64,000 nucleotides of DNA, from contig JAHPZA010000006.1 in assembly GCA_019058445.1 (NCBI GenBank), forward strand, positions 512,001 through 576,000, in the 5' to 3' direction. A program made the position numbers and the translations under genes. Positions 3,806-54,686 of the stretch are shown in pieces. The DNA comes from Promethearchaeota archaeon. GTDB taxonomy: Archaea > Asgardarchaeota > Lokiarchaeia > Sigyniarchaeales > SOKP01. Under the pieces are notes generated by a model. That model saw only the letters and a program-made list of their open reading frames with translations. It had not been told where the DNA came from and ran no database searches. Every line of letters begins with the position of its first letter. The stretch's first letter is position 1.

Positions 3806-3919
3806 AATCTTACCTTCTTAACCGCGGAAAATTTTAAATTTAAAACTTTACTTTACATTATATCTTATTTTGAAAAAACTTTAAGACCTCAAAATAAGAA
3901 AAAAAGTTTTATAATCGAT

Positions 3920-4080
3920 GCCAAGGTGGCGTAGCCCGGTGAGTGGGAGATTTTCTCTACTTGGGTAGGAACGCACCAGATTCATCGGAATTGCCGATAA
4001 AGGTGAAACTGAAGATCTGGGTATCGCGAGCTTTTGTTGCGATTCGCAACTGAACGCGAATTCAAATCTCGCTCTTGGCA
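3920..4080 (+). tRNA. trnF: tRNA-Phe(GAA) with three BHB introns (3940-3968, 3980-4007, 4031-4060)
   Basis: Removing 29+28+30 nt gives a 74-nt cloverleaf: GCCAAGG TG GCGT AGCCCGGGA ACGC A CCAGA CTGAAGA TCTGG GTATC GCGAG TTCAAAT CTCGC TCTTGGC A. Each intron has a 4-bp central helix and two 3-nt bulges. Confidence 0.93.
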
Positions 4081-4081
4081 T

Positions 4082-6076
4082 TTATAACATTTTCCATTTT
4101 GCCTTTAAATCATCAATTATTTTTTTAGCCTGTATATTATAATTAATTTTTTCGTCTTTTGAAGGATAACCCTTTGCATTTACTTTATACATCAAAATTT
4201 CTTCTATTTCATTGATTATTGACTCTTTACTCACATCATATCCATGCTTTTTACATAATCTTCTTAAATCATCCCGATATTCTTTAGAATAATAAGTTCT
4301 TCTATTGGGATATGTCTTAGATAATTCACTTTCTATTTTTATTCGTTTTTCAGGATCACCTCTACTCTTTAAAACCAATCCAAGAGTTTTTGCTCGATAA
4401 TCCCATTTTCTTGGTTTTATTTCATTGATAAATTTGACTACATCTTTTTTAGATTCTATATGTAATTCATAAGTATTTTCTCTTGTAACAGGATAGATTT
4501 TTCCTGTTTTTATATCATTATTTTCACACATTTTTTTGAAATCCTCCATAAGTGGGTAGGAGGCGTTTTTAAATCCAATGCGGATACAATTGTTTGCTTT
4601 ATGTATATGAAATGAGCCATCAGTATCCACTAATCCCCTTAAACCACGCTTTTGATATTCTTTGTTTTCCATGATCCATTCAGGTACACTTACTTGATTT
4701 ACTTTCTTATCTCCCGGTTTAAGCCCTAAATTAACTAATTCATTGACTATTTCTTTACCATTAATTGTTTGTTTTATCGCATTTGCCTCTTTCGGTTCAT
4801 ATATACTGGGATATTTATTAAATACCTTTTTCATCAAATTATTAATATCTTTTACGTATTCTATTTCTTCTGACTTATTTGTTGTTACTCTAAAACGTTG
4901 TTTATTATGGGGAATACTTCCATCTCCGAGACCAATGCACACCATTTCCGCTGAATCACCATTTTTAGTGAGATTATTAATTTCTTCTATTGTATCTTTT
5001 TCTGAATCATAGTTTTGTCGGATATCTTTTATAATTTCCTCTTGAGTTGTCATTTTACTGTTATCATTTGATTTTTCAATGTTATTTATTCTTATCTCCG
5101 TGATTTTACGTTCTGTTGGTTTATCTTCCTTAATTTCATGTTTAATTTCTTTTCCATATAACTTTTCTAACTCCTTAAAACTAGTAATATCCAAAGAATA
5201 TTCTTTATATAAAGCATTACCAATATAAGTTCCAATTTTTCTACTTATTTGATTATTTGAAATTCCTCTACTATTTAGATTATCACAGACTTGTTTTAAT
5301 TTAGAAGGTTCGATTTGAATTCTGTATTCGATTTCTGATTTGGGTATATTTTCTACTTTAGCAATTTCTCTCCCTATCAAGTTTTCAAGTTTTGCTAAAG
5401 ATTCGTTCTTAATTCCATAATTACGATATAAAACACCCTTGATATCACATCCAATTTGTTCTGAAATTTGTATTAACGTATATCCCTTAGTTCTTAATTC
5501 ACCCCAGACCTTTTTCAAATCATTCTGGTCTAATTTAATTCTTTCATTTTCGTTTTGCTTGTTTTTTATAATTTCTGAACTTTGATTTTCAAGATTTTCT
5601 GATAAATTCTCATTTGCACCTGAAATGTTTAATTCATTTCCTGTATCTTCGATTAAATTTTGATTAGTATCTTGATCTTCGAGCTTATATTCTACTCCTT
5701 TCACAAAATCAATCTCATTACTATTTCCTTCTAATTTATCTTCAATTCCTTCAAGAAAATCTTTATTCGTATCCTTATTTTCTGATTTATCTTCTATTCT
5801 ATCTGTAAAGATCACATCTGTATCTGATTTTTTTGATCTAACACACTCAGGTATAATCGCGACGATATCATATAATTTATCTGTATCTACTGGTTTATCT
5901 TCTATGTTTTCTAAAAAATCTATATTTATGTTATTATCATCTAGCTTATCATATAATTCCTCAATAAACTCCTTCTCATTATCTTGATCATTATTATTAT
6001 CTTCAATTTTTTCCCCATAATCCTCTTTAGAATCTTTGAGATCATCAAGATTTTCGTCATATTCATTGCCAGACAT
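4082..6076 (-). CDS. Free-standing double-motif LAGLIDADG homing-endonuclease-like protein with acidic N-terminus and two HTH-like repeats
   Basis: Motifs AEMVCIGLGDGSI and LRGLVDTDGSF; intein-type LGLKPGDK...VSVPEWI linker; no Hint termini; duplicated ~55-aa unit (LK.V...L...G......IS..IG......LY..Y......LE.L.G.EI). Confidence 0.85.
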   Translation of the reverse strand: MSGNEYDENLDDLKDSKEDYGEKIEDNNNDQDNEKEFIEELYDKLDDNNINIDFLENIEDKPVDTDKLYDIVAIIPECVRSKKSDTDVIFTDRIEDKSENKDTNKDFLEGIEDKLEGNSNEIDFVKGVEYKLEDQDTNQNLIEDTGNELNISGANENLSENLENQSSEIIKNKQNENERIKLDQNDLKKVWGELRTKGYTLIQISEQIGCDIKGVLYRNYGIKNESLAKLENLIGREIAKVENIPKSEIEYRIQIEPSKLKQVCDNLNSRGISNNQISRKIGTYIGNALYKEYSLDITSFKELEKLYGKEIKHEIKEDKPTERKITEIRINNIEKSNDNSKMTTQEEIIKDIRQNYDSEKDTIEEINNLTKNGDSAEMVCIGLGDGSIPHNKQRFRVTTNKSEEIEYVKDINNLMKKVFNKYPSIYEPKEANAIKQTINGKEIVNELVNLGLKPGDKKVNQVSVPEWIMENKEYQKRGLRGLVDTDGSFHIHKANNCIRIGFKNASYPLMEDFKKMCENNDIKTGKIYPVTRENTYELHIESKKDVVKFINEIKPRKWDYRAKTLGLVLKSRGDPEKRIKIESELSKTYPNRRTYYSKEYRDDLRRLCKKHGYDVSKESIINEIEEILMYKVNAKGYPSKDEKINYNIQAKKIIDDLKAKWKML

Positions 6077-45761: not shown

Positions 45762-47168
45762 ATGAGTGAAAGTGAAAGTGGTCCTCAAACAATTTCTGAT
45801 AAAATGAGAGTTTCCTTCGCCTTCGGGGAAGTAGGAGACAATGTTGCCTTAAATATCTTTCAGTTTTTAGTATTTACGTTCTATTTTTGTGTGGTAAAAC
45901 TTCCAGTATTATGGATTAGCTTAGCTTTTATCCTTTGGAGCGTATGGAATGCAATTAACGATCCTGTAGTAGGATATCTTTCCGATAAAACACAGAGTAA
46001 GAGAGGTCGTAGAGTTCCATGGATGATGGCTGCTATTATTCCATTAGGTATTGTTGTGATACTGTTATTTACACCTCCAATTGTTTTAAACTCCGATTTG
46101 GTAAATTTCATATACTTATTAGTTATTCTTATGGTCTTCGACACAGTCTATACCGCAGTTAATCTAAATTATAACGCACTTTTTTCAGAAATGTTCATTA
46201 ATATGGAAGATAGAAGTAGAACAGGAAAAATCCGTATAAGTTGTGTCATGCTGGCAACTATCTTTGCTTTTGTTTTCCCCACCCTGATTATTGATGATCT
46301 CACAAATAGAAAAGGTAATACAGCTGTTACACTATCCCAGTACCAAATTACTGGAGTTTTAGCGGCAATAGTTATTTTTGTGACGTATTTTTTCTTATTG
46401 AAATGGGGAGTTCGTGAACCTAAGGAGTTTTCAAAAGATGCCGAAACTGCGCTATCTTTTACAAGTACCATAAAAGCCTCTTTCAAAAATAAGTCTTTTT
46501 TATGGTTTTTATTACCAACACTGGGTACGTGGATGGTTATCGGCATAACCCCGGCGTTGGCACCCCTCTTTATGACGTATGCTGTTGGAATAGAGGATTC
46601 AGAGTTAATTGGGTTAGTTCTCCTTATTTTATTTCTCTCTGCTGCTGCTTCAACTCCATTATGGGAAAAAATTAGGGTAAAAAAAGGTGCTCGAATGTCT
46701 GGAATGGTCGGTGTAGTGGTTTGGGCTATTGGAGGTTTATTATTAGCATTTTCAACTAGCTTTGAAATGGCAGCAATAGTCGCAATTATAGATGGGATTG
46801 GATTAGGAGGAGGGCTCTATTTTTATGATCAATGTATAGCAGAGATCATTGACGAAGATGAAATTAACCTCGGTACTCGAAGATCTGGTATATACTATGC
46901 AGTTTTGAATTTCCTTATTAAATTTTCAGCGATAGCTAATTTTATAATCATTGGTATAGTATTTTCGAGCGCCGATTGGCAAACATATACACCAAATCCT
47001 GGAGTGGATACCATATTTGCACTTAGATTTCTGATGGGTATTTTTCCTCTCATTCTTCTTGTAATATCCTTTATAGGATTATATTTCTATCCTATACATG
47101 GAGAACGCTTAATGGAAAATAGAAGGAAACTTACGGAATTACATGAGCAAAAGGGAATTAGTTCATAA
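45762..47168 (+). CDS. MFS_2/GPH-family sugar transporter
   Basis: WNAINDP.VGYLSD.T.S..GRR.PW and RRSGIYYA; about 12 TM. Confidence 0.9.
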   Translation: MSESESGPQTISDKMRVSFAFGEVGDNVALNIFQFLVFTFYFCVVKLPVLWISLAFILWSVWNAINDPVVGYLSDKTQSKRGRRVPWMMAAIIPLGIVVILLFTPPIVLNSDLVNFIYLLVILMVFDTVYTAVNLNYNALFSEMFINMEDRSRTGKIRISCVMLATIFAFVFPTLIIDDLTNRKGNTAVTLSQYQITGVLAAIVIFVTYFFLLKWGVREPKEFSKDAETALSFTSTIKASFKNKSFLWFLLPTLGTWMVIGITPALAPLFMTYAVGIEDSELIGLVLLILFLSAAASTPLWEKIRVKKGARMSGMVGVVVWAIGGLLLAFSTSFEMAAIVAIIDGIGLGGGLYFYDQCIAEIIDEDEINLGTRRSGIYYAVLNFLIKFSAIANFIIIGIVFSSADWQTYTPNPGVDTIFALRFLMGIFPLILLVISFIGLYFYPIHGERLMENRRKLTELHEQKGISS

Positions 47169-47277: not shown

Positions 47278-48678
47278 ATGGGTGAAATCAATACTCAAAA
47301 AGTTTCTAAGGGAATGAGAGTTGCTTTTGCAAATGGAGATATAGGAGATACTGTTGCTCAATTTACTTTCCAATTTTTAATTTTTACTTTTTATTTTACA
47401 GTTGTAAGGCTACCTGTTTTGCTGGTTACTTTAGCATTTGTGTTTTGGAGTATTTGGAATGCAATTAACGATCCTATGATAGGATATCTCTCCGATCGAA
47501 CAAAAAGCAGATGGGGACGTAGAGTTCCATGGATGATGGGAGCGACTATTCCATTAGCGATTGTAATGATAATGTTATTTACTCCACCAATCGGTTTAAA
47601 CTCAGATTTAGTGAATTTTTTTTATTTATTGATAATCCTTATTATTTACGACACCGTATTTACTTCATTTAATTTAAATTATAACGCACTTTTTTCAGAG
47701 ATGTTTGTTGAAATGGAAGATCGGAGTAAAACAGGAGAAATACGCATAACTCTTACCATGATAGCAACAATACTGGCTTTTGTCCTGCCCACAATCATTA
47801 TAGAAGACTTGACAAATAGATACAATCGTCCTGAAACGTTAACTCAATACCAAATTACTGGAATCGTTGCTGCATGTATAATTCTCATTTCATATTTCAT
47901 TATACTGAAATGGGGCGTTCGCGAACCTAAAGAATTCTCAAAAGATGCTGAGACCGCATTATCTTTTACAAACACTGTGAAAGCTTCTTTTAAAAATAAG
48001 TCATTTCTATGGTTTATGTTTCCAGCACTGGGTACATGGATGGTTATATACATCTTACCAGCATTGGCACCTTTACACATGACATATGCGATTGGAATAG
48101 ACGATTCTTTGTTAATTGGGGTTCTTCTTCTTGTTATGTTCGTTTCTGCTGCGGCTTCTACACCTATTTGGGAAAAGATTAGAGTAAAAAAAGGTGCTCG
48201 CATGAGTGGAATGATAGGTATCGTGGTTTGGGCAATCCCTGTTTTATTTTTTGCTTTTGCCACTAGCTTTGAAATGGCTCTAATTATAGTGATTTTTGAG
48301 GGCATAGGGTTGGGAGGAGGGATCTATTTTTATGATCAGTGTTTAGCAGAGATCATTGATGAAGATGAAATTACGCATGGAACGAGACGCTCCGGTATAT
48401 ATTATGCTGTAATAAATTTCCTTATAAGAATATCGACTATAATTAATTTTATAGTAATAGGGTTAGTATTTTCCAGCACCGATTGGCAAACATATGAGCC
48501 GAATCCCGGAGTTGATACTATTTTTGCCCTTCGACTTTTAATTGGTGTTTATCCTTTCATAGTTCTGATTTTTGCGTTTATAGGAATGTATTTCTACCCG
48601 ATCCATGGAGAACGATTAATGGAAAACAGAAAAAAATTAACTGAATTACATGAACAAAAAAGAAGTAGTCTAAAATAA
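47278..48678 (+). CDS. MFS_2/GPH-family sugar transporter (tandem paralog)
   Basis: Colinear with and highly similar to 45762..47168. Confidence 0.9.
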   Translation: MGEINTQKVSKGMRVAFANGDIGDTVAQFTFQFLIFTFYFTVVRLPVLLVTLAFVFWSIWNAINDPMIGYLSDRTKSRWGRRVPWMMGATIPLAIVMIMLFTPPIGLNSDLVNFFYLLIILIIYDTVFTSFNLNYNALFSEMFVEMEDRSKTGEIRITLTMIATILAFVLPTIIIEDLTNRYNRPETLTQYQITGIVAACIILISYFIILKWGVREPKEFSKDAETALSFTNTVKASFKNKSFLWFMFPALGTWMVIYILPALAPLHMTYAIGIDDSLLIGVLLLVMFVSAAASTPIWEKIRVKKGARMSGMIGIVVWAIPVLFFAFATSFEMALIIVIFEGIGLGGGIYFYDQCLAEIIDEDEITHGTRRSGIYYAVINFLIRISTIINFIVIGLVFSSTDWQTYEPNPGVDTIFALRLLIGVYPFIVLIFAFIGMYFYPIHGERLMENRKKLTELHEQKRSSLK

Positions 48679-50099: not shown

Positions 50100-51311
50100 A
50101 TGAAAGCTGTAGAAATATCTGCTGAATGGTCTCCAAAACCGAGTTTTAAACTCGGTTCTAAAGATATTGATGGCAAACTGACTTATTTAGGTTCCCAAGT
50201 ATGGAAAAATCCAGTAGTAACGGTTATTGACGATAAACCGATTCCAAAAATCAAGCCAAATGAAGTTCTATTACAAGTGAAAAGATGCGGAATATGTGGT
50301 TCTGATGTTCATATGGCTCAATCATATGATGATGGATATATCTATTATCCGGGATTAACTGCGTTTCCTGCAACCCTCGGTCATGAGTTTGCTGGTGAAG
50401 TAGTAGAAGTTGGCAGCCAAGCAATAAATAAGAGGACTGGCAAATTATATGAGAAAGGTGAACCTGTAACTGTGGAAGAAATGGTGTGGTGCGGTGAATG
50501 TAAGCCATGTTGTGACGGATTCCCAAACCATTGTGAAAGATTGCAAGAAATAGGATTCTCAATTGATGGAGCTTTTGCTGAATATATTGCTGTCCCTTCT
50601 AAATTATGTTGGAGTTTAAAAAAATTGGAAGGAAAGTATGAAGATATATATAAAATAGGCAGTTTAGTCGAACCAACTTCGGTAGCTTATAATGCTGTTA
50701 TAGAAAGAGGGGGAGGGATTAGACCGGGTGAGAATGTTGTTATTTTAGGAGCTGGTCCAGTCGGTTTGGCTTCTGCTCGTATTTTGAAAACTGCAGGAGC
50801 TGCACTTTGTATTGTTTCTGAGCCTAACGAGCATCGAGCAAAATTTGCTAAAACAATGGGTGCTGATTATACAATTAATCCTCAAAAAGAAAACTTTGTA
50901 GAGAAAGTAAAGGAGTATACCGATAACGATGGAGCTGCTTTATATCTTGAGGCAACAGGACTTCCTCAAGTAGTTACAGAGGATATTCAAAACTGTATTT
51001 GGGAATGTAAATCCGTCAATAGTACTGTTGTTATTGTGGCAAGGGCAGAGCAGAGAATGCCTGTTTGCGGTGAATATTTTCAAGTAAGAAGAGCCCGAAT
51101 TGTTGGTGCACAAGCTTAAATAGATCTCCTATTTAAAATGTATGGCCACAGCGGGCACGGAACCTTTCCAAATGTAATTAGTTGTATGGCTGCTGGAATG
51201 GACATGACACCATTGGTTACAAAAGAGATCTCATTAGATGATGTACCAGAAAATTTAAAATTACTTCAAACGGATAGGGAAAATTGCAAAATTTCTGCCA
51301 AAATTAACTAG
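50100..51311 (+). CDS. iolM: scyllo-Inosose 3-dehydrogenase (Zn-dependent MDR) interrupted by a 30-nt insert; 393 aa if the insert is removed
   Basis: CGICGSD, GHE, CGECKPC...C, GAGPVG. After IVGAQ the frame resumes 30 nt later with GHSGHGTFPNVISCMAAGMDMTPLVTKEISLDDVPENLKLLQTDRENCKISAKIN*. Inositol gene context. Confidence 0.85.
51115..51144 (+). other. Putative BHB-type mRNA micro-intron (30 nt; equivalent register 51114-51143)
   Basis: In-frame insert carrying TAA, with an 8-bp hairpin TTAAATAG/CTATTTAA and relaxed bulge-helix-bulge junctions. Same size as the three tRNA introns. Confidence 0.65.
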
Positions 51312-51316
51312 ATTTT

Positions 51317-53485
51317 TTAAAAATCATCTATTTTTTTTTGATTTTCTTTTTCATATTTATGGATTTTATTAAATTCTACTTTTAGTTGAGCATGGTTTTC
51401 TAAAAATTTCTTTAACTCTTTTTTATGATTTACTTTACAATAGTTAGAAAGCTTAATTTTCAAATCTTTTAATTCCCTTAAATTGGATGTAATATTGTTT
51501 TTCGTGACAACAATATTATTTATTACTATGTTATGGAAGATTTTTCTTTCTTCTTCGTTAAAATCCATTATTTCAGCAAATAAGTCATGTCGGATTATTA
51601 TAACCCTTTTAGAATACAAATTTCTTTCTTTTTCCGAAATTTTAGCATTCTTAGGAAAATCTATAACTTTTAAAGGCATATCTGAAATACCAATAATAAA
51701 AAGTAAAGTATAAGGTGTATAATATTTTCTAGCTTTATCTAAGATATTTTCTTCATTCAAATTACTAGTAAAATCGAATAAGATAATTTTATATTTAAAC
51801 AAATCTAATTTCAATTTAACAAGATTATCTCTAATTTTTTGAGTGAAATCTTTATTGACTATTAATAATCCATCAATTCGGTAGTTATAATTAAGAAATA
51901 TTACAATTTCAGAATAATATAGACTTCCCAGTTTCCTGGTCATTAAAAAATTGATACATTTATGAGAAAGAATACCTATATTTCTATATTTAGCAAAATA
52001 TGTATCGTTAAAACGGATGTCATATAAGGTAGGATTGAGGATTTTTTTCGCAATATCAGTTATAGGTCGTCTACTTACCCCATATGCCTTAGCAATTTTA
52101 GTTAGAGATCTTCCATTTTCAAAATCTCTAATCTCATTAACTATTTCGGAAATATCATTTATTAAATCTATTTTTATACCAATATTATCACTTATCACTT
52201 CTATAGAGATTCCAAGCTCCAAATCATTAATGATTTTATCCCTAAGGTCTATATTAGATAATGTGTTATAAAAACCCAAGAAATTAGCAATTTTTTGAAT
52301 TTTTTTTCGTGGTATATTATATTTTCTGGCAATATCCACGGGTACCCATTTATCTATTAACATCCTATATAATATACAATTTATAATTTCATTGTTCCTG
52401 TTGATTGAAACTACTTTTTTTATGGTTTCATCATAGTCAATGTCTTGATTTTTTGTCCAAGTCTTAAAATCACTTATAATCTTAAAACTATGAATAGGGC
52501 GAATTAAATACTTATCAGATTTAATGCTTAAACTGTACTCTTTTAATAAAAATTGTAATTTAGGATTATTAAAATTCTGAAAGCTAATTTCTGTTATTTT
52601 ATCATCTAATATATCCTTAGCAATCTTCATTATCTTTTCTTTAGTAATTATATCTCGTCCTCTCTTAAGGAGCTTTATATATTTCGAGACGGTTGATTTT
52701 GAAATGCCTGCTCTTTTTGCTATTTGTCTGGCACTTTCTTCTGTTTGAATGATTCTATGTACAACAAATTTTACAATCTCAGAATTTCTATTAATTATTT
52801 CACATTTTTTTAGAATCTCATCTTTATTCAATTTAGACGAATAACCATCTAAAATATTTATTAATTTAGATTCATCAATATTTTTTATCCATAGTGCAAA
52901 CTCTCTTGTAATTCTAACCACATTATATGGAGAGTTAGTTCCTGATATATTTCGATAATATTTTAGTAATCTCTGAAATTGGGGATGAGTAAAATTTTTA
53001 AATTCTATTCTTTCAATGTTTTCTGCTACTTTAATTATATAATTGTCGGAGAAAGTATGTTTAAATCGATTATCAAATTTATTCTTAATTACAATTTTAG
53101 CTATTTGATTTAAAGTTGAATCAGTCATATGAAATTTTTCCTTCAATTCTGTTAATGAAACTCCAAAAACGAAATCAATAATATCTAAAACTAGAAGGAA
53201 ATGATCTTCAATTGTTTTAAAATTAACGTTGCGCCTATCAGTTTGTATTCTCGAACATTTATATTTATTGACAAAATCATGAAATTTATTATCAATTTCC
53301 AAGAAAATTTTTTCATATGTTGGATTTTTGAATAATTTCTTATTTCTTCTTATCTTAATGATATCATTTAAAATATGAACGAATTTATAGGTTTCTCTAA
53401 TATTCAACTCTTTTTTTAAATTTATAATAAAATGATTTAATTCCAATATTAGTTTTTTCCGTTCAAATGATATTCTTTTTACCAT
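51317..53485 (-). CDS. Multi-HTH protein with putative C-terminal PD-(D/E)xK-like nuclease domain
   Basis: Two ~120-aa internal repeats ending in HTHs (SARQIAKRAGISKSTVSKY; PVDIARKYNIPRKKIQKI), further HTHs (SLTKIAKAYGVSRRPI), then GILSHKCI...SE...RIDG...FDFTS...K..KY. Very AT-rich. Confidence 0.6.
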   Translation of the reverse strand: MVKRISFERKKLILELNHFIINLKKELNIRETYKFVHILNDIIKIRRNKKLFKNPTYEKIFLEIDNKFHDFVNKYKCSRIQTDRRNVNFKTIEDHFLLVLDIIDFVFGVSLTELKEKFHMTDSTLNQIAKIVIKNKFDNRFKHTFSDNYIIKVAENIERIEFKNFTHPQFQRLLKYYRNISGTNSPYNVVRITREFALWIKNIDESKLINILDGYSSKLNKDEILKKCEIINRNSEIVKFVVHRIIQTEESARQIAKRAGISKSTVSKYIKLLKRGRDIITKEKIMKIAKDILDDKITEISFQNFNNPKLQFLLKEYSLSIKSDKYLIRPIHSFKIISDFKTWTKNQDIDYDETIKKVVSINRNNEIINCILYRMLIDKWVPVDIARKYNIPRKKIQKIANFLGFYNTLSNIDLRDKIINDLELGISIEVISDNIGIKIDLINDISEIVNEIRDFENGRSLTKIAKAYGVSRRPITDIAKKILNPTLYDIRFNDTYFAKYRNIGILSHKCINFLMTRKLGSLYYSEIVIFLNYNYRIDGLLIVNKDFTQKIRDNLVKLKLDLFKYKIILFDFTSNLNEENILDKARKYYTPYTLLFIIGISDMPLKVIDFPKNAKISEKERNLYSKRVIIIRHDLFAEIMDFNEEERKIFHNIVINNIVVTKNNITSNLRELKDLKIKLSNYCKVNHKKELKKFLENHAQLKVEFNKIHKYEKENQKKIDDF

Positions 53486-53641: not shown

Positions 53642-53684
53642 GGACATATTGGTCATGGAACGCTTCTTATGTGATTTCTTGTAT
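53642..53684 (+). pseudogene. Degenerate copy of the iolM segment GHSGHGTFPNVISCM
   Basis: GGA CAT ATT GGT CAT GGA ACG CTT CTT AT- GTG ATT TCT TGT AT; begins at the codon where the 30-nt insert sits. Confidence 0.75.
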
Positions 53685-53694
53685 ATTTACTTCA

Positions 53695-54477
53695 TTAATG
53701 ATAATAGTCTATAAATTCTCCTTCGATTTTCTTAAAAGGAATTAGCTTAAATAATTCTTCGAAAAGATAATTATAGGTTTCTAAATCAAAAATTTTAAAC
53801 TCAAATGAGTATTTCTGAAAATCTCCTTCATCTAAATTGTTAAAATAATCAAAATATAATCCAATTTTATAATAATCTGTATAAGTGTGATCGACAGTTA
53901 TTGTTTTAATGTTAAATATATTGACAAAAATATATTTTTCAGTTAAATTAAAATTTTTTTTTGAATACTTAGATTTCAATTCTAAATAATTCTTAAGTTT
54001 CTTTTTCGGATAATTTTGAATCCATCTTTTATTAGTTAATATTTTATCTCTTCTAGTATCTGTTAATTTTTTATTTAAACCATATGTTCTGAATAAAATC
54101 CTTTCATCTCTTTCTAAATGATCGAATATTTCTGTTCTTGCTAAGATCATATTAATGCACTTAAGAACTGCAGGTATTATTTTTTTTTTAAAGGATTTTT
54201 TTGGCACAGCATAACCTTGCTCCCTTCTTCCTTTATAAAATATGTTTAATACACCATTTTCGACTTTAAATATAATCTTAAATAAAAAGTTCTTTGTAAT
54301 TAATTTTAATGTTGTCGATAAATGTTCACGAGGGCCATATTCTTTTATATTATAGCGAGATCTTTTAGTACCATAAATATTTGCTGTAATATTTCTCACA
54401 AATTCATCAAAAACTTCATTGATATCCTTCAGATATTTGTCTAGTCTAACAATTAGTTCTGGCTCTTCTTCCATCAT
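53695..54477 (-). CDS. Hypothetical protein (cargo between two iolM fragments)
   Basis: 260-aa K/F/I-rich ORF; no family recognised. Confidence 0.6.
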   Translation of the reverse strand: MMEEEPELIVRLDKYLKDINEVFDEFVRNITANIYGTKRSRYNIKEYGPREHLSTTLKLITKNFLFKIIFKVENGVLNIFYKGRREQGYAVPKKSFKKKIIPAVLKCINMILARTEIFDHLERDERILFRTYGLNKKLTDTRRDKILTNKRWIQNYPKKKLKNYLELKSKYSKKNFNLTEKYIFVNIFNIKTITVDHTYTDYYKIGLYFDYFNNLDEGDFQKYSFEFKIFDLETYNYLFEELFKLIPFKKIEGEFIDYYH

Positions 54478-54560
54478 CTTTCGTACAAATTTTTATAAAA
54501 AATGAATTGAATTCAAACTATTTGTTTAAAGTTAAAAAGAAATTAGAATTTATAAATGCG

Positions 54561-54686
54561 ATGGCAGCGGGTATGGATATGACACCCATGGTTACCAAAG
54601 AAATTAGTTTAGATCAAGTTCCTGAAAATCTCAAGCTTTTACAAACAGATCGAGAAAATTGTAAAATTTCTGCGAAAATAGCATAA
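54561..54686 (+). pseudogene. Displaced second copy of the last 41 codons of iolM
   Basis: MAAGMDMTPMVTKEISLDQVPENLKLLQTDRENCKISAKIA*: 38/41 aa but only 93/126 nt identical to 51186-51311. Confidence 0.92.

What the first reader, a model, noticed from the sequence alone, without database searches (positions are those of the whole stretch)
51105..51149. Putative tRNA-type (BHB) micro-intron inside a protein-coding gene
Seen: CAA G|CTTAAATAGATCTCCTATTTAAAATGTATG|GC CAC. Exactly 30 nt separate Gln and Gly of the conserved GAQGHSGHG motif. The insert has an in-frame TAA and an 8-bp hairpin. It folds into a relaxed BHB in either register: CACA/TGTA with bulges AGC and TGG, or GCAC/ATGT with bulges AAG and ATG plus flanking helix TGGT/GCCA. 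Each central helix has one C-A mismatch, and both registers give the same spliced product. Its size matches the tRNA introns, and its AG^CTT 5' junction matches tRNA intron 3. Known: the archaeal splicing endonuclease EndA cuts BHBs, and the classic archaeal mRNA intron is in crenarchaeal cbf5. Inference: mRNA splicing of a metabolic gene in an Asgard archaeon. Alternative: an in-frame ATG at 51138 could give a separate 57-aa C-terminal peptide (split enzyme).
Basis: partly seen in the sequence, partly recalled or inferred. Interest (0 to 1): 0.9.

Follow-up and report, generated by a model that had tools for sequence, protein, structure and literature searches.

The report
tRNA-type mini-intron in an Asgard enzyme gene
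A 30-base insert that breaks a sugar-alcohol dehydrogenase gene of a Lokiarchaeon folds like the introns archaea cut out of tRNAs, recurs in relatives with compensating changes, and appears to travel between genomes together with a neighbouring nuclease-like gene, so it is very probably a spliced, mobile intron in an archaeal protein gene.

Summary
A 30-nt insert (window 51114-51143) with an in-frame TAA splits a scyllo-inosose-3-dehydrogenase-like Zn-ADH gene exactly at GAQ|GHSGHG. The closest relatives (94% and 91% aa) are uninterrupted.

- **Recurrence:** fifteen or more independent assemblies carry a homologous insert of 28, 29 or 30 nt at the same site. Other orthologues carry 29-30-nt inserts at two further sites, one a perfect hBHBh' motif.
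- **Structure:** on 13 variants, 92.6% of cells pair in the BHB structure, against 36-47% in slid controls. Five pairs show compensatory changes.
- **Selection:** the 3' exon is under strong purifying selection (dN/dS 0.02-0.08).
- **Machinery:** EndA and RtcB genes are present.
- **Missing evidence:** no RNA data cover the junction, so splicing is inferred (about 0.8).

A 722-aa multi-HTH protein with a weakly PD-(D/E)xK-like C-terminus lies convergent, 5 bp after the stop. Every member of this family fetched here lies beside this intron. The intron flanks have a separate, single phylogenetic origin. The native 3' end lies displaced downstream. Together these suggest homing-like mobility.

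The scan has already reported similar mRNA introns elsewhere in this genome. In the searched literature only crenarchaeal cbf5 is known.

The parts
50100..51113 (+). Exon 1 of the scyllo-inosose-3-dehydrogenase-like Zn-dependent dehydrogenase gene (338 codons, ends ...RIVGAQ).
   Evidence: ORF list and translation. Pfam ADH_N and ADH_zinc_N. Homologues of 392-393 aa are named scyllo-inosose 3-dehydrogenase by NCBI.
51114..51143 (+). The 30-nt BHB intron, in the register with cuts at CAA|G and UAU|G. The register 51115-51144 gives the same product. It contains the in-frame TAA at 51117-51119.
   Evidence: Homologous inserts of 28-30 nt lie at the same site in L001, L003, L007, L012, L044, L078-L080, L082, L084, L085, L088, L089 and L092.
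51144..51311 (+). Exon 2 (GHSGHGTFPNV... to the stop; 55 codons plus TAG/TAA stop).
   Evidence: dN/dS is 0.02-0.08 among intron-bearing alleles. It is 96% identical in nt to intron-bearing L012 but only 79% to the otherwise closest allele L008.
51108..51111 (+). 5' strand of the central 4-bp helix (GCAC, in exon 1). It pairs with 51138-51141 (AUGU, in the intron). In this genome the helix is 3 bp plus a C.A mismatch.
   Evidence: This helix is 98% paired across 13 variants. The window is the only variant with the mismatch.
51112..51114 (+). 5' bulge AA|G, with the predicted cut after 51113.
   Evidence: Geometry. The cut position follows from the junction in intronless alleles.
51115..51137 (+). 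Intron hairpin: a C.A mismatch, then the 8-bp stem UUAAAUAG/CUAUUUAA and a 5-nt loop (51124-51128).
   Evidence: Five of nine pairs show compensatory changes across variants.
51142..51144 (+). 3' bulge AU|G, with the predicted cut after 51143.
51093..51107 (+). 5' strands of the exon-exon helices (GCCCG, UUGU, GGU). They pair with 51145-51156 (GCC, ACAG, CGGGC).
   Evidence: MFE fold. These pairs are 95% paired across variants. The exon flanks are co-inherited with the intron, so this conservation is weak evidence.
51317..53485 (-). p722: a 722-aa protein with several HTH motifs and a C-terminal domain that weakly resembles PD-(D/E)xK nucleases. It is convergent with the dehydrogenase gene and ends 5 bp after its stop.
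53642..53690 (+). Degenerate, frameshifted copy of the first 15 codons of exon 2. It starts exactly at the intron insertion site.
   Evidence: read.
53695..54492 (-). A 265-aa ORF of unknown function, lying between the two displaced exon-2 fragments. It has a 77% aa homologue at the same place in G174.
54552..54686 (+). Displaced native 3' end of the gene (codons 12-55 of exon 2, open frame).
   Evidence: 91% aa, 76% nt to the resident exon 2. One search shows it is nearest to the intronless sister allele L008 (82.6%), not to the resident exon 2 (73.6%).

Best explanation
The 30 nt at 51114-51143 are an archaeal bulge-helix-bulge (tRNA-type) intron in the pre-mRNA of a scyllo-inosose-3-dehydrogenase-like enzyme.

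**RNA level.** The last bases of exon 1 (GCAC) pair with the intron's RUGY to form the 4-bp central helix. It is flanked by two 3-nt bulges (AA|G and AU|G), an intron hairpin and exon-exon helices. The splicing endonuclease EndA would cut after the second base of each bulge. RtcB would then join CAA to GGC, which restores GAQGHSGHG and the full 393-aa enzyme. The fold and its conservation are shown here. Cleavage and ligation are inferred from the known mechanism and from the presence of both enzyme genes.

**DNA level.** The intron seems to belong to a mobile cassette made of about 100 nt of upstream exon, the intron, exon 2 and the convergent gene p722. This cassette has spread between diverged alleles by recombination and displaced the native 3' end.

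**Most likely driver (inferred).** p722 is probably a site-specific DNA endonuclease that cuts intronless alleles at the intron insertion site. This would resemble the 'collaborative homing' of a free-standing endonuclease and an intron in phages.
For: **Site and product**
- The 30-nt insert lies exactly at a conserved motif. The closest homologues are uninterrupted.
- After removal of the predicted introns, 78 of the 80 orthologues checked translate without internal stops; in L085 a further 29-nt site-B intron accounts for the stop, and L089 is damaged.

**Conservation of the structure**
- Homologous inserts lie at the same site in 15 or more assemblies. On 13 distinct variants, 92.6% of cells pair, against 36-47% when partners are slid. 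Five pairs have changes on both sides, and the central helix is 98% paired.
- In several relatives the MFE fold has two 3-nt bulges and a central helix of 4 bp (L003, L079, L082, L089) or 5 bp (L007, L044); H2 is a full 4 bp in the frame-restoring register.
- Variants of 28 and 29 nt at site A (L078, L080, G146) and 29 nt at site B (L085) keep the downstream frame intact only if they are removed.
- Two more 30-nt inserts occur in the same gene family: site B at RCGI|CGSD and site C at CGSD|VHM. Neither has a start codon before the conserved downstream codons. Site C is a perfect hBHBh' (H1 8 bp, H2 4 bp, H3 10 bp). At all three sites the frame-restoring register is the best BHB register.

**Function retained**
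- dN/dS of exon 2 is 0.02-0.08 among intron-bearing alleles.
- The EndA alpha subunit and RtcB are encoded in the genome. PMC5829648 reports that Asgard EndA is the broad-specificity (alpha-beta)2 type.
- The same window holds a tRNA-Phe with introns of 29, about 28 and 30 nt. An EF-2 paralogue in this genome holds a canonical 30-nt BHB intron.

**Mobility**
- p722 or its remnant lies downstream in 11 of 19 intron-A loci and in 0 of 31 intronless loci.
- Every p722 locus fetched (six of the seven clusters found among 5.8 billion proteins) lies beside an interrupted copy of this gene.
- Among 135 genomes of the family, orthologues occur only in G000 and G146. Both carry the intron.
- The window's allele is nearest to intronless G170 over nt 1-900, but nearest to intron-bearing alleles from nt 900 to the end.
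- Monophyly of intron-bearing alleles is rejected for the 5' 880 nt (p-AU 0.0002) but not for the 3' 285 nt (p-AU 0.93).
- Displaced native 3' ends start at the intron site (window 53642) or 3 nt after it (L084).
Against: - No transcript evidence exists. The only RNA run found holds distant relatives and does not cover the junction.
- In this genome the central helix has a C.A mismatch and the intron hairpin starts with another. The motif is therefore relaxed, and its folding z-score is only -2.16.
- An in-frame AUG or GUG lies two codons before exon 2 in every variant. Separate translation of a 57-aa piece is not excluded at this site.
- Exon sequences that form the outer helices are co-inherited with the intron, so their conservation is not independent evidence.
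- A naive genome-wide scan (BHB plus ORF fusion) gave no excess over an antisense control. An equally good BHB-like fold lies inside an intact transporter gene. The fold alone therefore proves little.
- The nuclease assignment of p722 is weak: Foldseek E 0.02, VIA Z 4.3-4.6, and no Pfam nuclease domain.
- Eight intron-bearing loci lack p722. Site-B introns have no such neighbour.
Confidence: 0.8

Rival explanations
1. Split enzyme. The insert is never removed. The cell makes a 339-aa N-terminal fragment ending at the TAA and a 57-aa C-terminal peptide started at AUG 51138 (GUG in relatives). The two assemble non-covalently.
For: - An in-frame AUG or GUG lies two codons before Gly in all 13 variants.
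- Exon 2 is under purifying selection, which this model also predicts.
- No RNA data are available.
Against: - The start codon is explained by pairing with GCAC in the central helix.
- The model does not explain the conserved bulge/helix geometry or the compensatory changes in the hairpin.
- At sites B and C of the same gene there is no start codon before the conserved codons CGSDVH and VH. A split there would lose them.
- The cut would fall inside the most conserved motif of the C-terminal region.
Confidence: 0.08
2. Dead gene or recombination scar. The 30 nt are debris left at the junction of the p722 cassette. The gene is a pseudogene in this genome.
For: - The insert lies at the left edge of an imported segment.
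- One relative (L089) has further damage: a 1-nt and a 42-nt deletion.
Against: - Both exons are intact. dN/dS of exon 2 is 0.02-0.08 while synonymous sites are near saturation.
- The insert persists with a conserved structure in lineages that have lost p722.
- Unrelated inserts of the same size and architecture lie at two other sites with no cassette nearby.
Confidence: 0.04
3. Translational recoding. Ribosomes either read through the TAA, adding 10 residues, or hop over the 30 nt as in phage T4 gene 60.
For: A stop codon directly follows the take-off region and lies in a hairpin. This superficially resembles gene 60.
Against: - The 28- and 29-nt variants rule out read-through.
- There are no matching take-off and landing codons: CAA or GCU against UAU or AUG.
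- The inserted peptide is not conserved, and the stop sits at different codons.
- The conserved geometry is that of a BHB, not of a bypass element.
Confidence: 0.02
4. The intron is real and spliced, but p722 has nothing to do with it. p722 would be an unrelated selfish or regulatory gene that happens to be linked to an intron-bearing allele lineage.
For: - Eight intron-bearing loci lack p722. Site-B and site-C introns have no such neighbour.
- No nuclease domain is recognised by Pfam.
- Kin are not independent.
Against: - p722 or its remnants occur with the intron in alleles that fall in different clades by their 5' region.
- Among the loci fetched here, p722 and its remnants are found only at this locus.
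- Displaced native 3' ends begin at the intron insertion site or within 3 nt of it in two loci.
- The only hits carrying a Pfam family in the feature search, and a recurring minority of the weak fold matches, are PD-(D/E)xK nucleases.
Confidence: 0.3

Closest known systems
cbf5 pre-mRNA intron of Crenarchaeota (Watanabe et al. 2002; Yoshinari et al. 2006; Yokobori et al. 2009, PMC2738675)
   Same: - A short BHB intron inside a protein-coding ORF that interrupts a conserved, functionally needed motif.
- The host has the hetero-oligomeric, broad-specificity EndA.
- Distribution is patchy, with precise gain or loss among relatives.
   Different: - The host is an Asgard (Lokiarchaeia-type) archaeon, not a crenarchaeon.
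- The gene is a metabolic dehydrogenase, not an RNA-modification enzyme.
- The same gene family has three intron sites, and up to two occur in one gene.
- Splicing of cbf5 was shown by RT-PCR and in vitro cleavage. Here it is inferred.
- A linked nuclease-like gene and a co-converted exon tract are seen here and were not reported for cbf5.
[quoted passage not shown]
   Same: - The same size class (28-30 nt) and architecture as the three introns of the tRNA-Phe in this window.
- The same predicted enzymes.
- Repeated gains at sites that can fold into a BHB.
   Different: - The host RNA is an mRNA, so the exon helices are built from codons.
- The preprint does not mention introns in mRNAs. It states that the route of intron arrival is open.
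Homing of archaeal rRNA BHB introns that encode LAGLIDADG endonucleases, and 'collaborative homing' of a free-standing endonuclease with an ORF-less group I intron in phages (from my own knowledge; not checked in the library)
   Same: - An intron-linked endonuclease-type gene.
- Co-conversion of flanking exons.
- Patchy distribution with decayed endonuclease genes. This fits an invasion, decay and loss cycle.
   Different: - The intron is only 30 nt and cannot encode anything.
- The candidate nuclease lies outside the host gene, convergent with it.
- It is not a LAGLIDADG, GIY-YIG or HNH protein. It is an HTH-rich protein with a weakly PD-(D/E)xK-like domain.
- Its activity and target are untested.
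HAC1/XBP1 unconventional mRNA splicing in eukaryotes (from my own knowledge)
   Same: Protein-only excision of a short intron from an mRNA at stem-loop structures. In metazoa, RtcB then joins the exons.
   Different: The nuclease there is Ire1, not the tRNA splicing endonuclease. That system is regulatory and stress-induced. No regulation is shown here.

Membership tests
Archaeal BHB intron (EndA substrate) | Two 3-nt bulges on opposite strands, separated by a 4-bp helix. | tested here: met
   - In the window the bulges are AAG and AUG. The central helix GCAC/AUGU has 3 bp plus a C.A mismatch, so the motif is relaxed.
- In 12 of 13 variants the helix is a full 4 bp.
- Site C in G165 is fully canonical.
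Archaeal BHB intron (EndA substrate) | Flanking helices on both sides: an exon-exon helix and an intron helix. | tested here: met
   The exon helices are 95% paired. The intron hairpin is 87% paired, with five compensatory pairs.
Archaeal BHB intron (EndA substrate) | Cutting after the second bulge base on each side yields the functional mature RNA. | tested here: met
   The predicted junction CAA-GGC equals the sequence of intronless orthologues. Of 80 orthologues, 78 translate cleanly after intron removal; L085 does so once its second, 29-nt intron is also removed, and L089 is damaged.
Archaeal BHB intron (EndA substrate) | The host encodes the splicing endonuclease and the RtcB ligase. | tested here: met
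   PF01974 hits at C9:770595-770843 within a 202-aa ORF. PF01139 hits at C1:114713-116020. The beta subunit was not searched for.
Archaeal BHB intron (EndA substrate) | Excision and exon ligation are observed in RNA (spliced reads, circular intron). | not testable with these tools
   Only one metatranscriptome run holds related sequence, and it does not cover the junction.
Zn-dependent medium-chain dehydrogenase, scyllo-inosose-3-dehydrogenase-like (IolM) | ADH_N (GroES-like) and ADH_zinc_N domains, with the GICGSDVH and GHE motifs. | tested here: met
   Pfam E-values are 1.5e-25 and 2.2e-15. The motifs are visible in the translation. The name comes from NCBI annotations of homologues. The substrate was not tested.
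Split gene (two independently translated pieces) | The downstream piece has its own start codon. | tested here: inconclusive
   At site A an AUG or GUG lies at -2 codons in all variants. At sites B and C there is none before the conserved codons.
Homing-type mobile intron with a free-standing endonuclease | An endonuclease gene is linked to the intron-bearing allele and absent from intronless alleles. | tested here: met
   p722 or a remnant is present in 11 of 19 intron-bearing loci and 0 of 31 intronless loci. Six of the seven database clusters were traced to contigs, and all lie at this locus. Four loci were found through p722 itself, and kin are not independent.
Homing-type mobile intron with a free-standing endonuclease | Flanking exon sequence is co-converted with the intron. 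| tested here: met
   The identity profile is mosaic. The AU tests give p 0.0002 for the 5' part and 0.93 for the 3' part. The displaced native 3' end is nearest to the intronless sister allele.
Homing-type mobile intron with a free-standing endonuclease | The protein is a DNA endonuclease whose target spans the intron insertion site. | not testable with these tools
   The only indirect hint is that displaced native 3' ends begin at the insertion site or 3 nt after it.
PD-(D/E)xK nuclease superfamily (C-terminal domain of p722) | A restriction-endonuclease-like alpha/beta core with conserved acidic and lysine residues. | tested here: inconclusive
   - The model has pLDDT 75.
- Foldseek gives E 0.02 to bunyavirus cap-snatching endonucleases.
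- VIA gives Z 4.3-4.6 to AF1548, N.BspD6I, BsaWI and the R2 RLE domain, among unrelated helical proteins.
- Atlas feature hits of 0.82-0.87 carry Flu_PA, PDDEXK_3, Mrr_cat and AHJR-like.
- E526, D538, D571, K584 and K587 are invariant.
- There is no Pfam hit and no PDB sequence hit.

The most novel reading that the evidence does not exclude
The tiny BHB introns that pepper Asgard protein and tRNA genes may be mobile at the DNA level. They would ride with free-standing site-specific nucleases encoded just outside the host gene. Examples are p722 next to this dehydrogenase gene and a LAGLIDADG gene abutting the three-intron tRNA-Phe in the same window.

The nuclease would cut intronless alleles at the insertion site. 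Repair would then copy the intron, the flanking exon and the nuclease gene. The intron would protect its carrier from further cutting.

This would give a concrete route for the 'arrival' of archaeal introns, which a 2026 preprint on Asgard tRNA introns leaves open. It would also show intron spread into ordinary mRNAs in the closest prokaryotic relatives of eukaryotes.
Probability: 0.4. Interest if true: 0.92.

Novelty: new variant of a known kind. Interest (0 to 1): 0.8.

Why it matters
In the literature I could search, introns of the tRNA type inside archaeal protein-coding regions are known from one gene only, cbf5 of Crenarchaeota. This case differs in several ways.

- **Host and gene:** an ordinary metabolic gene of an Asgard archaeon carries one. 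Orthologues carry them at three sites, with up to two in one gene.
- **Scale:** other genes of the same genome carry similar ones. mRNA splicing by the tRNA machinery may therefore be a routine part of gene expression in this lineage.
- **Annotation:** gene callers report these genes as truncated (338-344 aa plus a 57-aa orphan). Annotation of Asgard genomes is affected.
- **Mobility:** the linked nuclease-like gene, the co-converted exon tract and the displaced native 3' end make the question of how such introns move directly testable with two proteins and two DNA substrates.

Tried and rejected
- **RNA evidence.** One search found a single metatranscriptome run with 6% of the words. Laid at 80% likeness, it covers only 50145-50832 with diverged contigs and nothing at the junction. 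It gives no verdict either way.
- **Other copies of the intron.** blastn-short of the intron and its flanks against the whole genome finds nothing convincing. The intron is not a repeat family by sequence.
- **Genome-wide census.** I scanned for BHB geometry plus fusion of two open frames, with the antisense strand as control. One setting gave 1065 sense against 741 control hits, another 3873 against 2991. There was no peak at 30 nt, and stricter filters gave no clear excess. Adjacent genes swamp the signal, so this design cannot count mRNA introns. It did recover the window's intron.
- **False positive.** A BHB-like fold of equal quality lies at window 46599-46628. It sits inside an intact MFS transporter ORF whose paralogue has the same length there.
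- **tRNA detection.** ARAGORN (default) and Rfam (gathering threshold and E up to 0.1) find no tRNA in the window. The tRNA-Phe appears only after its introns are removed.
- **p722 fold.** The PDB sequence profile search gives nothing meaningful. The fold searches give only weak matches.
- **Site B.** In L042 and L043 the central helix has only 2 of 4 pairs in the frame-restoring register. Those two are poor BHBs.
- **Rejected readings.** An intein is ruled out because the insert is only 10 codons with a stop. An assembly artefact is ruled out because 15 or more independent assemblies carry it. A translational hop is ruled out because there are no matching codons.
- **Paralogues of the p722 C-terminal domain.** I looked at three loci and saw no interrupted neighbour at a glance. 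This was not pursued.
Full report
**1.

Window 50100-51119 encodes 339 aa ending ...RIVGAQA*. A 57-aa ORF starts at 51138 in the same frame. The N-terminal part carries ADH_N and ADH_zinc_N. Its closest database relatives are uninterrupted proteins of 393 aa (P0002, 94%; P0003, 91%) that read ...RIVGAQGHSGHGTFPNV.... Many homologues are named scyllo-inosose 3-dehydrogenase and come from Promethearchaeota, Lokiarchaeia or Hodarchaeota MAGs. The window's gene therefore differs by exactly 30 nt, 51114-51143 or equally 51115-51144.

The TAA, the 8-bp hairpin, the C.A mismatch and the ATG at 51138 are all as described. The gene sits in a sugar/inositol-type cluster: a Gfo/Idh/MocA oxidoreductase, two MFS_2 transporters and one MFS_1 transporter lie upstream. 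Relatives share this synteny.

**2. The insert recurs at the same site in diverged lineages**

Five truncated protein clusters (338 or 344 aa) stop at the same place. Their contigs carry a 30-nt insert there. A scan of 400 genomes of the phylum found the gene in 75. Together with a pattern scan of metagenomes, this gave site-A inserts in G000, G174, G173, G165, G146 and ten metagenome contigs. Lengths are 28, 29 or 30 nt.

The 28- and 29-nt forms would shift the frame, yet the downstream exon is intact in the shifted frame. After removal of the predicted introns, 78 of the 80 orthologues checked translate without stops. L085 does so once a second, 29-nt site-B intron is also removed, and L089 is damaged.

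**3. The structure is that of a BHB motif and it is conserved**

I tested one structure on an alignment of 13 distinct variants (A1). It consists of exon helices, the 4-bp central helix GCAC/RUGY, the 3-nt bulges AAG and AUG, and a 9-bp intron hairpin.
- 92.6% of cells are paired, against 36-47% when partners are slid by 1-3 columns.
- Five pairs change on both sides, all in the freely evolving hairpin.
- The central helix is 98% paired.

The window's allele is the only one with a mismatch (C.A) in the central helix. The comparative data choose the register with cuts at CAA|G and UAU|G. The other register keeps an invariant C.A mismatch and loses a pair in three variants. In several relatives the MFE fold shows two 3-nt bulges with a central helix of 4 or 5 bp; in the frame-restoring register H2 is 4 bp.

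In the window the fold alone is only modestly better than shuffles (z -2.16). A motif of this quality with a 30-nt intron occurs at 3.4e-6 of genome positions, and here it lies at the one place that homology dictates.

**4. Two more intron sites in the same gene argue against a split enzyme**

- **Site B.** Five genomes of another genus carry a 30-nt, stop-bearing insert at RCGI|CGSD. One contig carries a 29-nt version.
- **Site C.** G165 and L101 carry an insert at CGSD|VHM, in addition to site A.

Neither site offers a start codon before the conserved downstream codons. The piece holding the GICGSDVH motif could therefore not be translated separately. Site C is a textbook hBHBh' (H1 8 bp, H2 4 bp, H3 10 bp). 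At all three sites the register that restores the frame is also the best BHB register. Site B is relaxed, and it is poor in two sequences.

**5. The gene is alive**

Among nine intron-bearing alleles, exon 2 has dN/dS of 0.02-0.08 with synonymous sites near saturation. This rules out a pseudogene. It leaves splicing or separate translation, and section 4 speaks against separate translation.

**6. The machinery and the genomic habit are there**

The genome encodes an EndA catalytic subunit and RtcB. PMC5829648 reports that Asgard archaea have the (alpha-beta)2 EndA with the loop that confers broad specificity for relaxed motifs.

In this window a tRNA-Phe(GAA) carries introns of 29, about 28 and 30 nt. 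Standard tools see the gene only after the introns are cut out.

Earlier notes of this scan list similar mRNA introns in other genes of this genome. I checked two.
- An EF-2 paralogue has a canonical 30-nt BHB intron at C10:684116-684145. Its removal restores ...QLQMTDSDDEEQERGITI....
- The acs gene and several AMP-binding paralogues contain internal stops.

My own structure-plus-ORF census could not quantify the phenomenon.

**7. What is missing**

No RNA data cover the junction. Cleavage, ligation and the circular intron are inferred from the known mechanism.

**8. The intron is part of a larger mobile unit**

Five bp after the stop codon, on the other strand, lies a 722-aa ORF, p722.
- **Family size.** It has several HTH motifs and belongs to a family of only seven clusters among 5.8 billion proteins.
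- **Location.** Every member I could place lies convergent to a site-A-interrupted copy of this dehydrogenase gene.
- **Association.** Among loci with at least 300 nt downstream, p722 or a decayed remnant is present in 11 of 19 intron-bearing loci and 0 of 31 intronless loci. Among 135 genomes of the family, orthologues occur only in G000 and G146. Both carry the intron.
- **Mosaic allele.** The window's allele is nearest to the intronless G170 allele over nt 1-900 (80-90%). From nt 900 to the end it is nearest to intron-bearing alleles (87-96%, against 79-82% to G170).
- **Separate history of the flank.** A single clade of intron-bearing alleles is rejected for the 5' 880 nt (p-AU 0.0002). 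It is fully acceptable for the 3' 285 nt with the intron itself excluded (p-AU 0.93).
- **Displaced native 3' end.** Downstream of p722 lie a degenerate copy of the first 15 codons of exon 2, starting exactly at the intron insertion site (53642-53690), and an open copy of codons 12-55 (54552-54686). The open copy is nearest to the intronless sister allele (82.6%), not to the resident exon 2 (73.6%). It is therefore the native 3' end, displaced when the intron, exon 2 and p722 came in.
- **Other loci.** L084 shows the same layout. Its displaced copy starts 3 nt after the insertion site and uses intronless-type codons. L104 and L012 have shorter displaced copies.

**9. What p722 may be**

The C-terminal 245 aa fold with pLDDT 75. 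Matches are weak. The best Foldseek rows are nearly all PD-(D/E)xK nucleases, and PD-(D/E)xK proteins recur among many unrelated helical matches in the VIA list.
- Foldseek: bunyavirus and influenza cap-snatching endonucleases, BstEII, R.BspD6I, McrC (E 0.02-0.4).
- VIA: AF1548, N.BspD6I, BsaWI, the R2 restriction-like endonuclease, Cap4, Can2, BamHI (Z 3.5-4.6).
- Feature search: clusters carrying Flu_PA, PDDEXK_3, AHJR-like or Mrr_cat (0.82-0.87).

Invariant residues include E526, D538, D571, K584 and K587. I read p722 as a probable site-specific DNase, but this is a lead and not a result.

The same window has a LAGLIDADG ORF (PF14528, E 9.5e-11) abutting the 3' end of the three-intron tRNA-Phe. 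This is a second case of the same layout.

**10. Mechanism proposed**

- **Shown:** the BHB geometry, its conservation, precise presence/absence, selection on exon 2, linkage with p722, the separate history of the intron flanks and the displaced native 3' end.
- **Inferred:** EndA cuts at CAA|G and UAU|G, and RtcB joins the exons. p722 cuts intronless alleles at the insertion site, and repair copies the cassette. The intron then protects its carrier. p722 later decays (L001, L003), and the intron is sometimes lost precisely (G170, G172). These losses would explain the six state changes on the gene tree.

**11. Comparison with what is known**

The closest known case is the cbf5 intron of Crenarchaeota (PMC2738675). 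The architecture and size match the tRNA introns of Asgard archaea. A 2026 preprint describes these as gained repeatedly by an unknown route, and it does not mention mRNAs. Four full-text searches found no paper on BHB introns in Asgard protein genes.

Homing of endonuclease-encoding archaeal rRNA introns, and collaborative homing in phages, are the nearest models for the DNA-level behaviour. This comparison rests on my own knowledge.

**12. Verdict**

This is a real feature, and very probably a spliced BHB intron (0.8). It is a new variant of a known kind. The link to a free-standing nuclease-like gene is the most novel part. It is moderately supported (about 0.4-0.5) and is directly testable.

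Noticed in passing
window 3919-4080 (+): A tRNA-Phe(GAA) gene is interrupted by three non-canonical introns: 3940-3968 (29 nt), one of about 28 nt near 3974-4010, and 4031-4060 (30 nt, CGCG/CGCG central helix). ARAGORN and Rfam do not see the gene until the introns are removed.
   Followed up: partly
window 4085-6076 (-): A 664-aa ORF with a LAGLIDADG_3 domain (E 9.5e-11) ends about 2 bp from the 3' end of the three-intron tRNA-Phe. This is the same tail-to-tail layout as p722 and the dehydrogenase gene.
   Followed up: partly
window 53695-54492 (-): A 265-aa ORF with no family match lies between the two displaced exon-2 fragments. A 77% aa homologue lies at the same relative place in G174 (L012:2420-3214). 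There p722 and the first fragment are missing.
   Followed up: partly
window 46599-46628 (+): A BHB-like fold with a 30-nt 'intron' (H1 6 bp, H3 9 bp) lies inside an intact MFS_2 transporter ORF (45762-47168). The paralogue of that ORF (47278-48678) has the same length there. This is a chance look-alike, and a caution for motif-only scans.
   Followed up: yes
G000:C10:684116-684145 (-), in L096: An EF-2 paralogue carries a canonical 30-nt BHB intron (ACAG/CUGU central helix, 9-bp hairpin) in the switch I region. The genome also has an uninterrupted aEF-2 at C9:663619-665790.
   Followed up: partly
G000:C10:621084-623089 (-); C6:861976-863748; C6:220650-222302; C10:295477-296580; C6:876338-877992: Acetyl-CoA synthetase and four other AMP-binding family genes of this genome contain one to three internal stops or a frame break. 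These are candidates for further mini-introns. A strict BHB scan resolved none of them cleanly. An earlier, looser scan flagged a 29-nt BHB candidate at C6:877181-877209 between the two fragments of the last gene.
   Followed up: partly
L089 (metagenome contig SDBV01063058.1): This intron-bearing orthologue also has a 1-nt deletion and a 42-nt deletion that removes the GxGxxG region. It is probably a decaying copy or an assembly error.
   Followed up: no
L116 (G230:C90), L115 (G232:C41), and others listed: Distant paralogues (29-38% aa) of the p722 C-terminal domain occur in other large ORFs (558-1565 aa) of related genomes. The one in G230 is convergent with, and about 60 bp from, the end of a ribosomal protein S4e gene.
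   Followed up: no
L085 (SDBS01000202.1) and L044/L108 (G165), L101: Single genes carry two introns: site A plus site B (29 nt) in L085, and site A plus site C in G165 and L101.
   Followed up: yes
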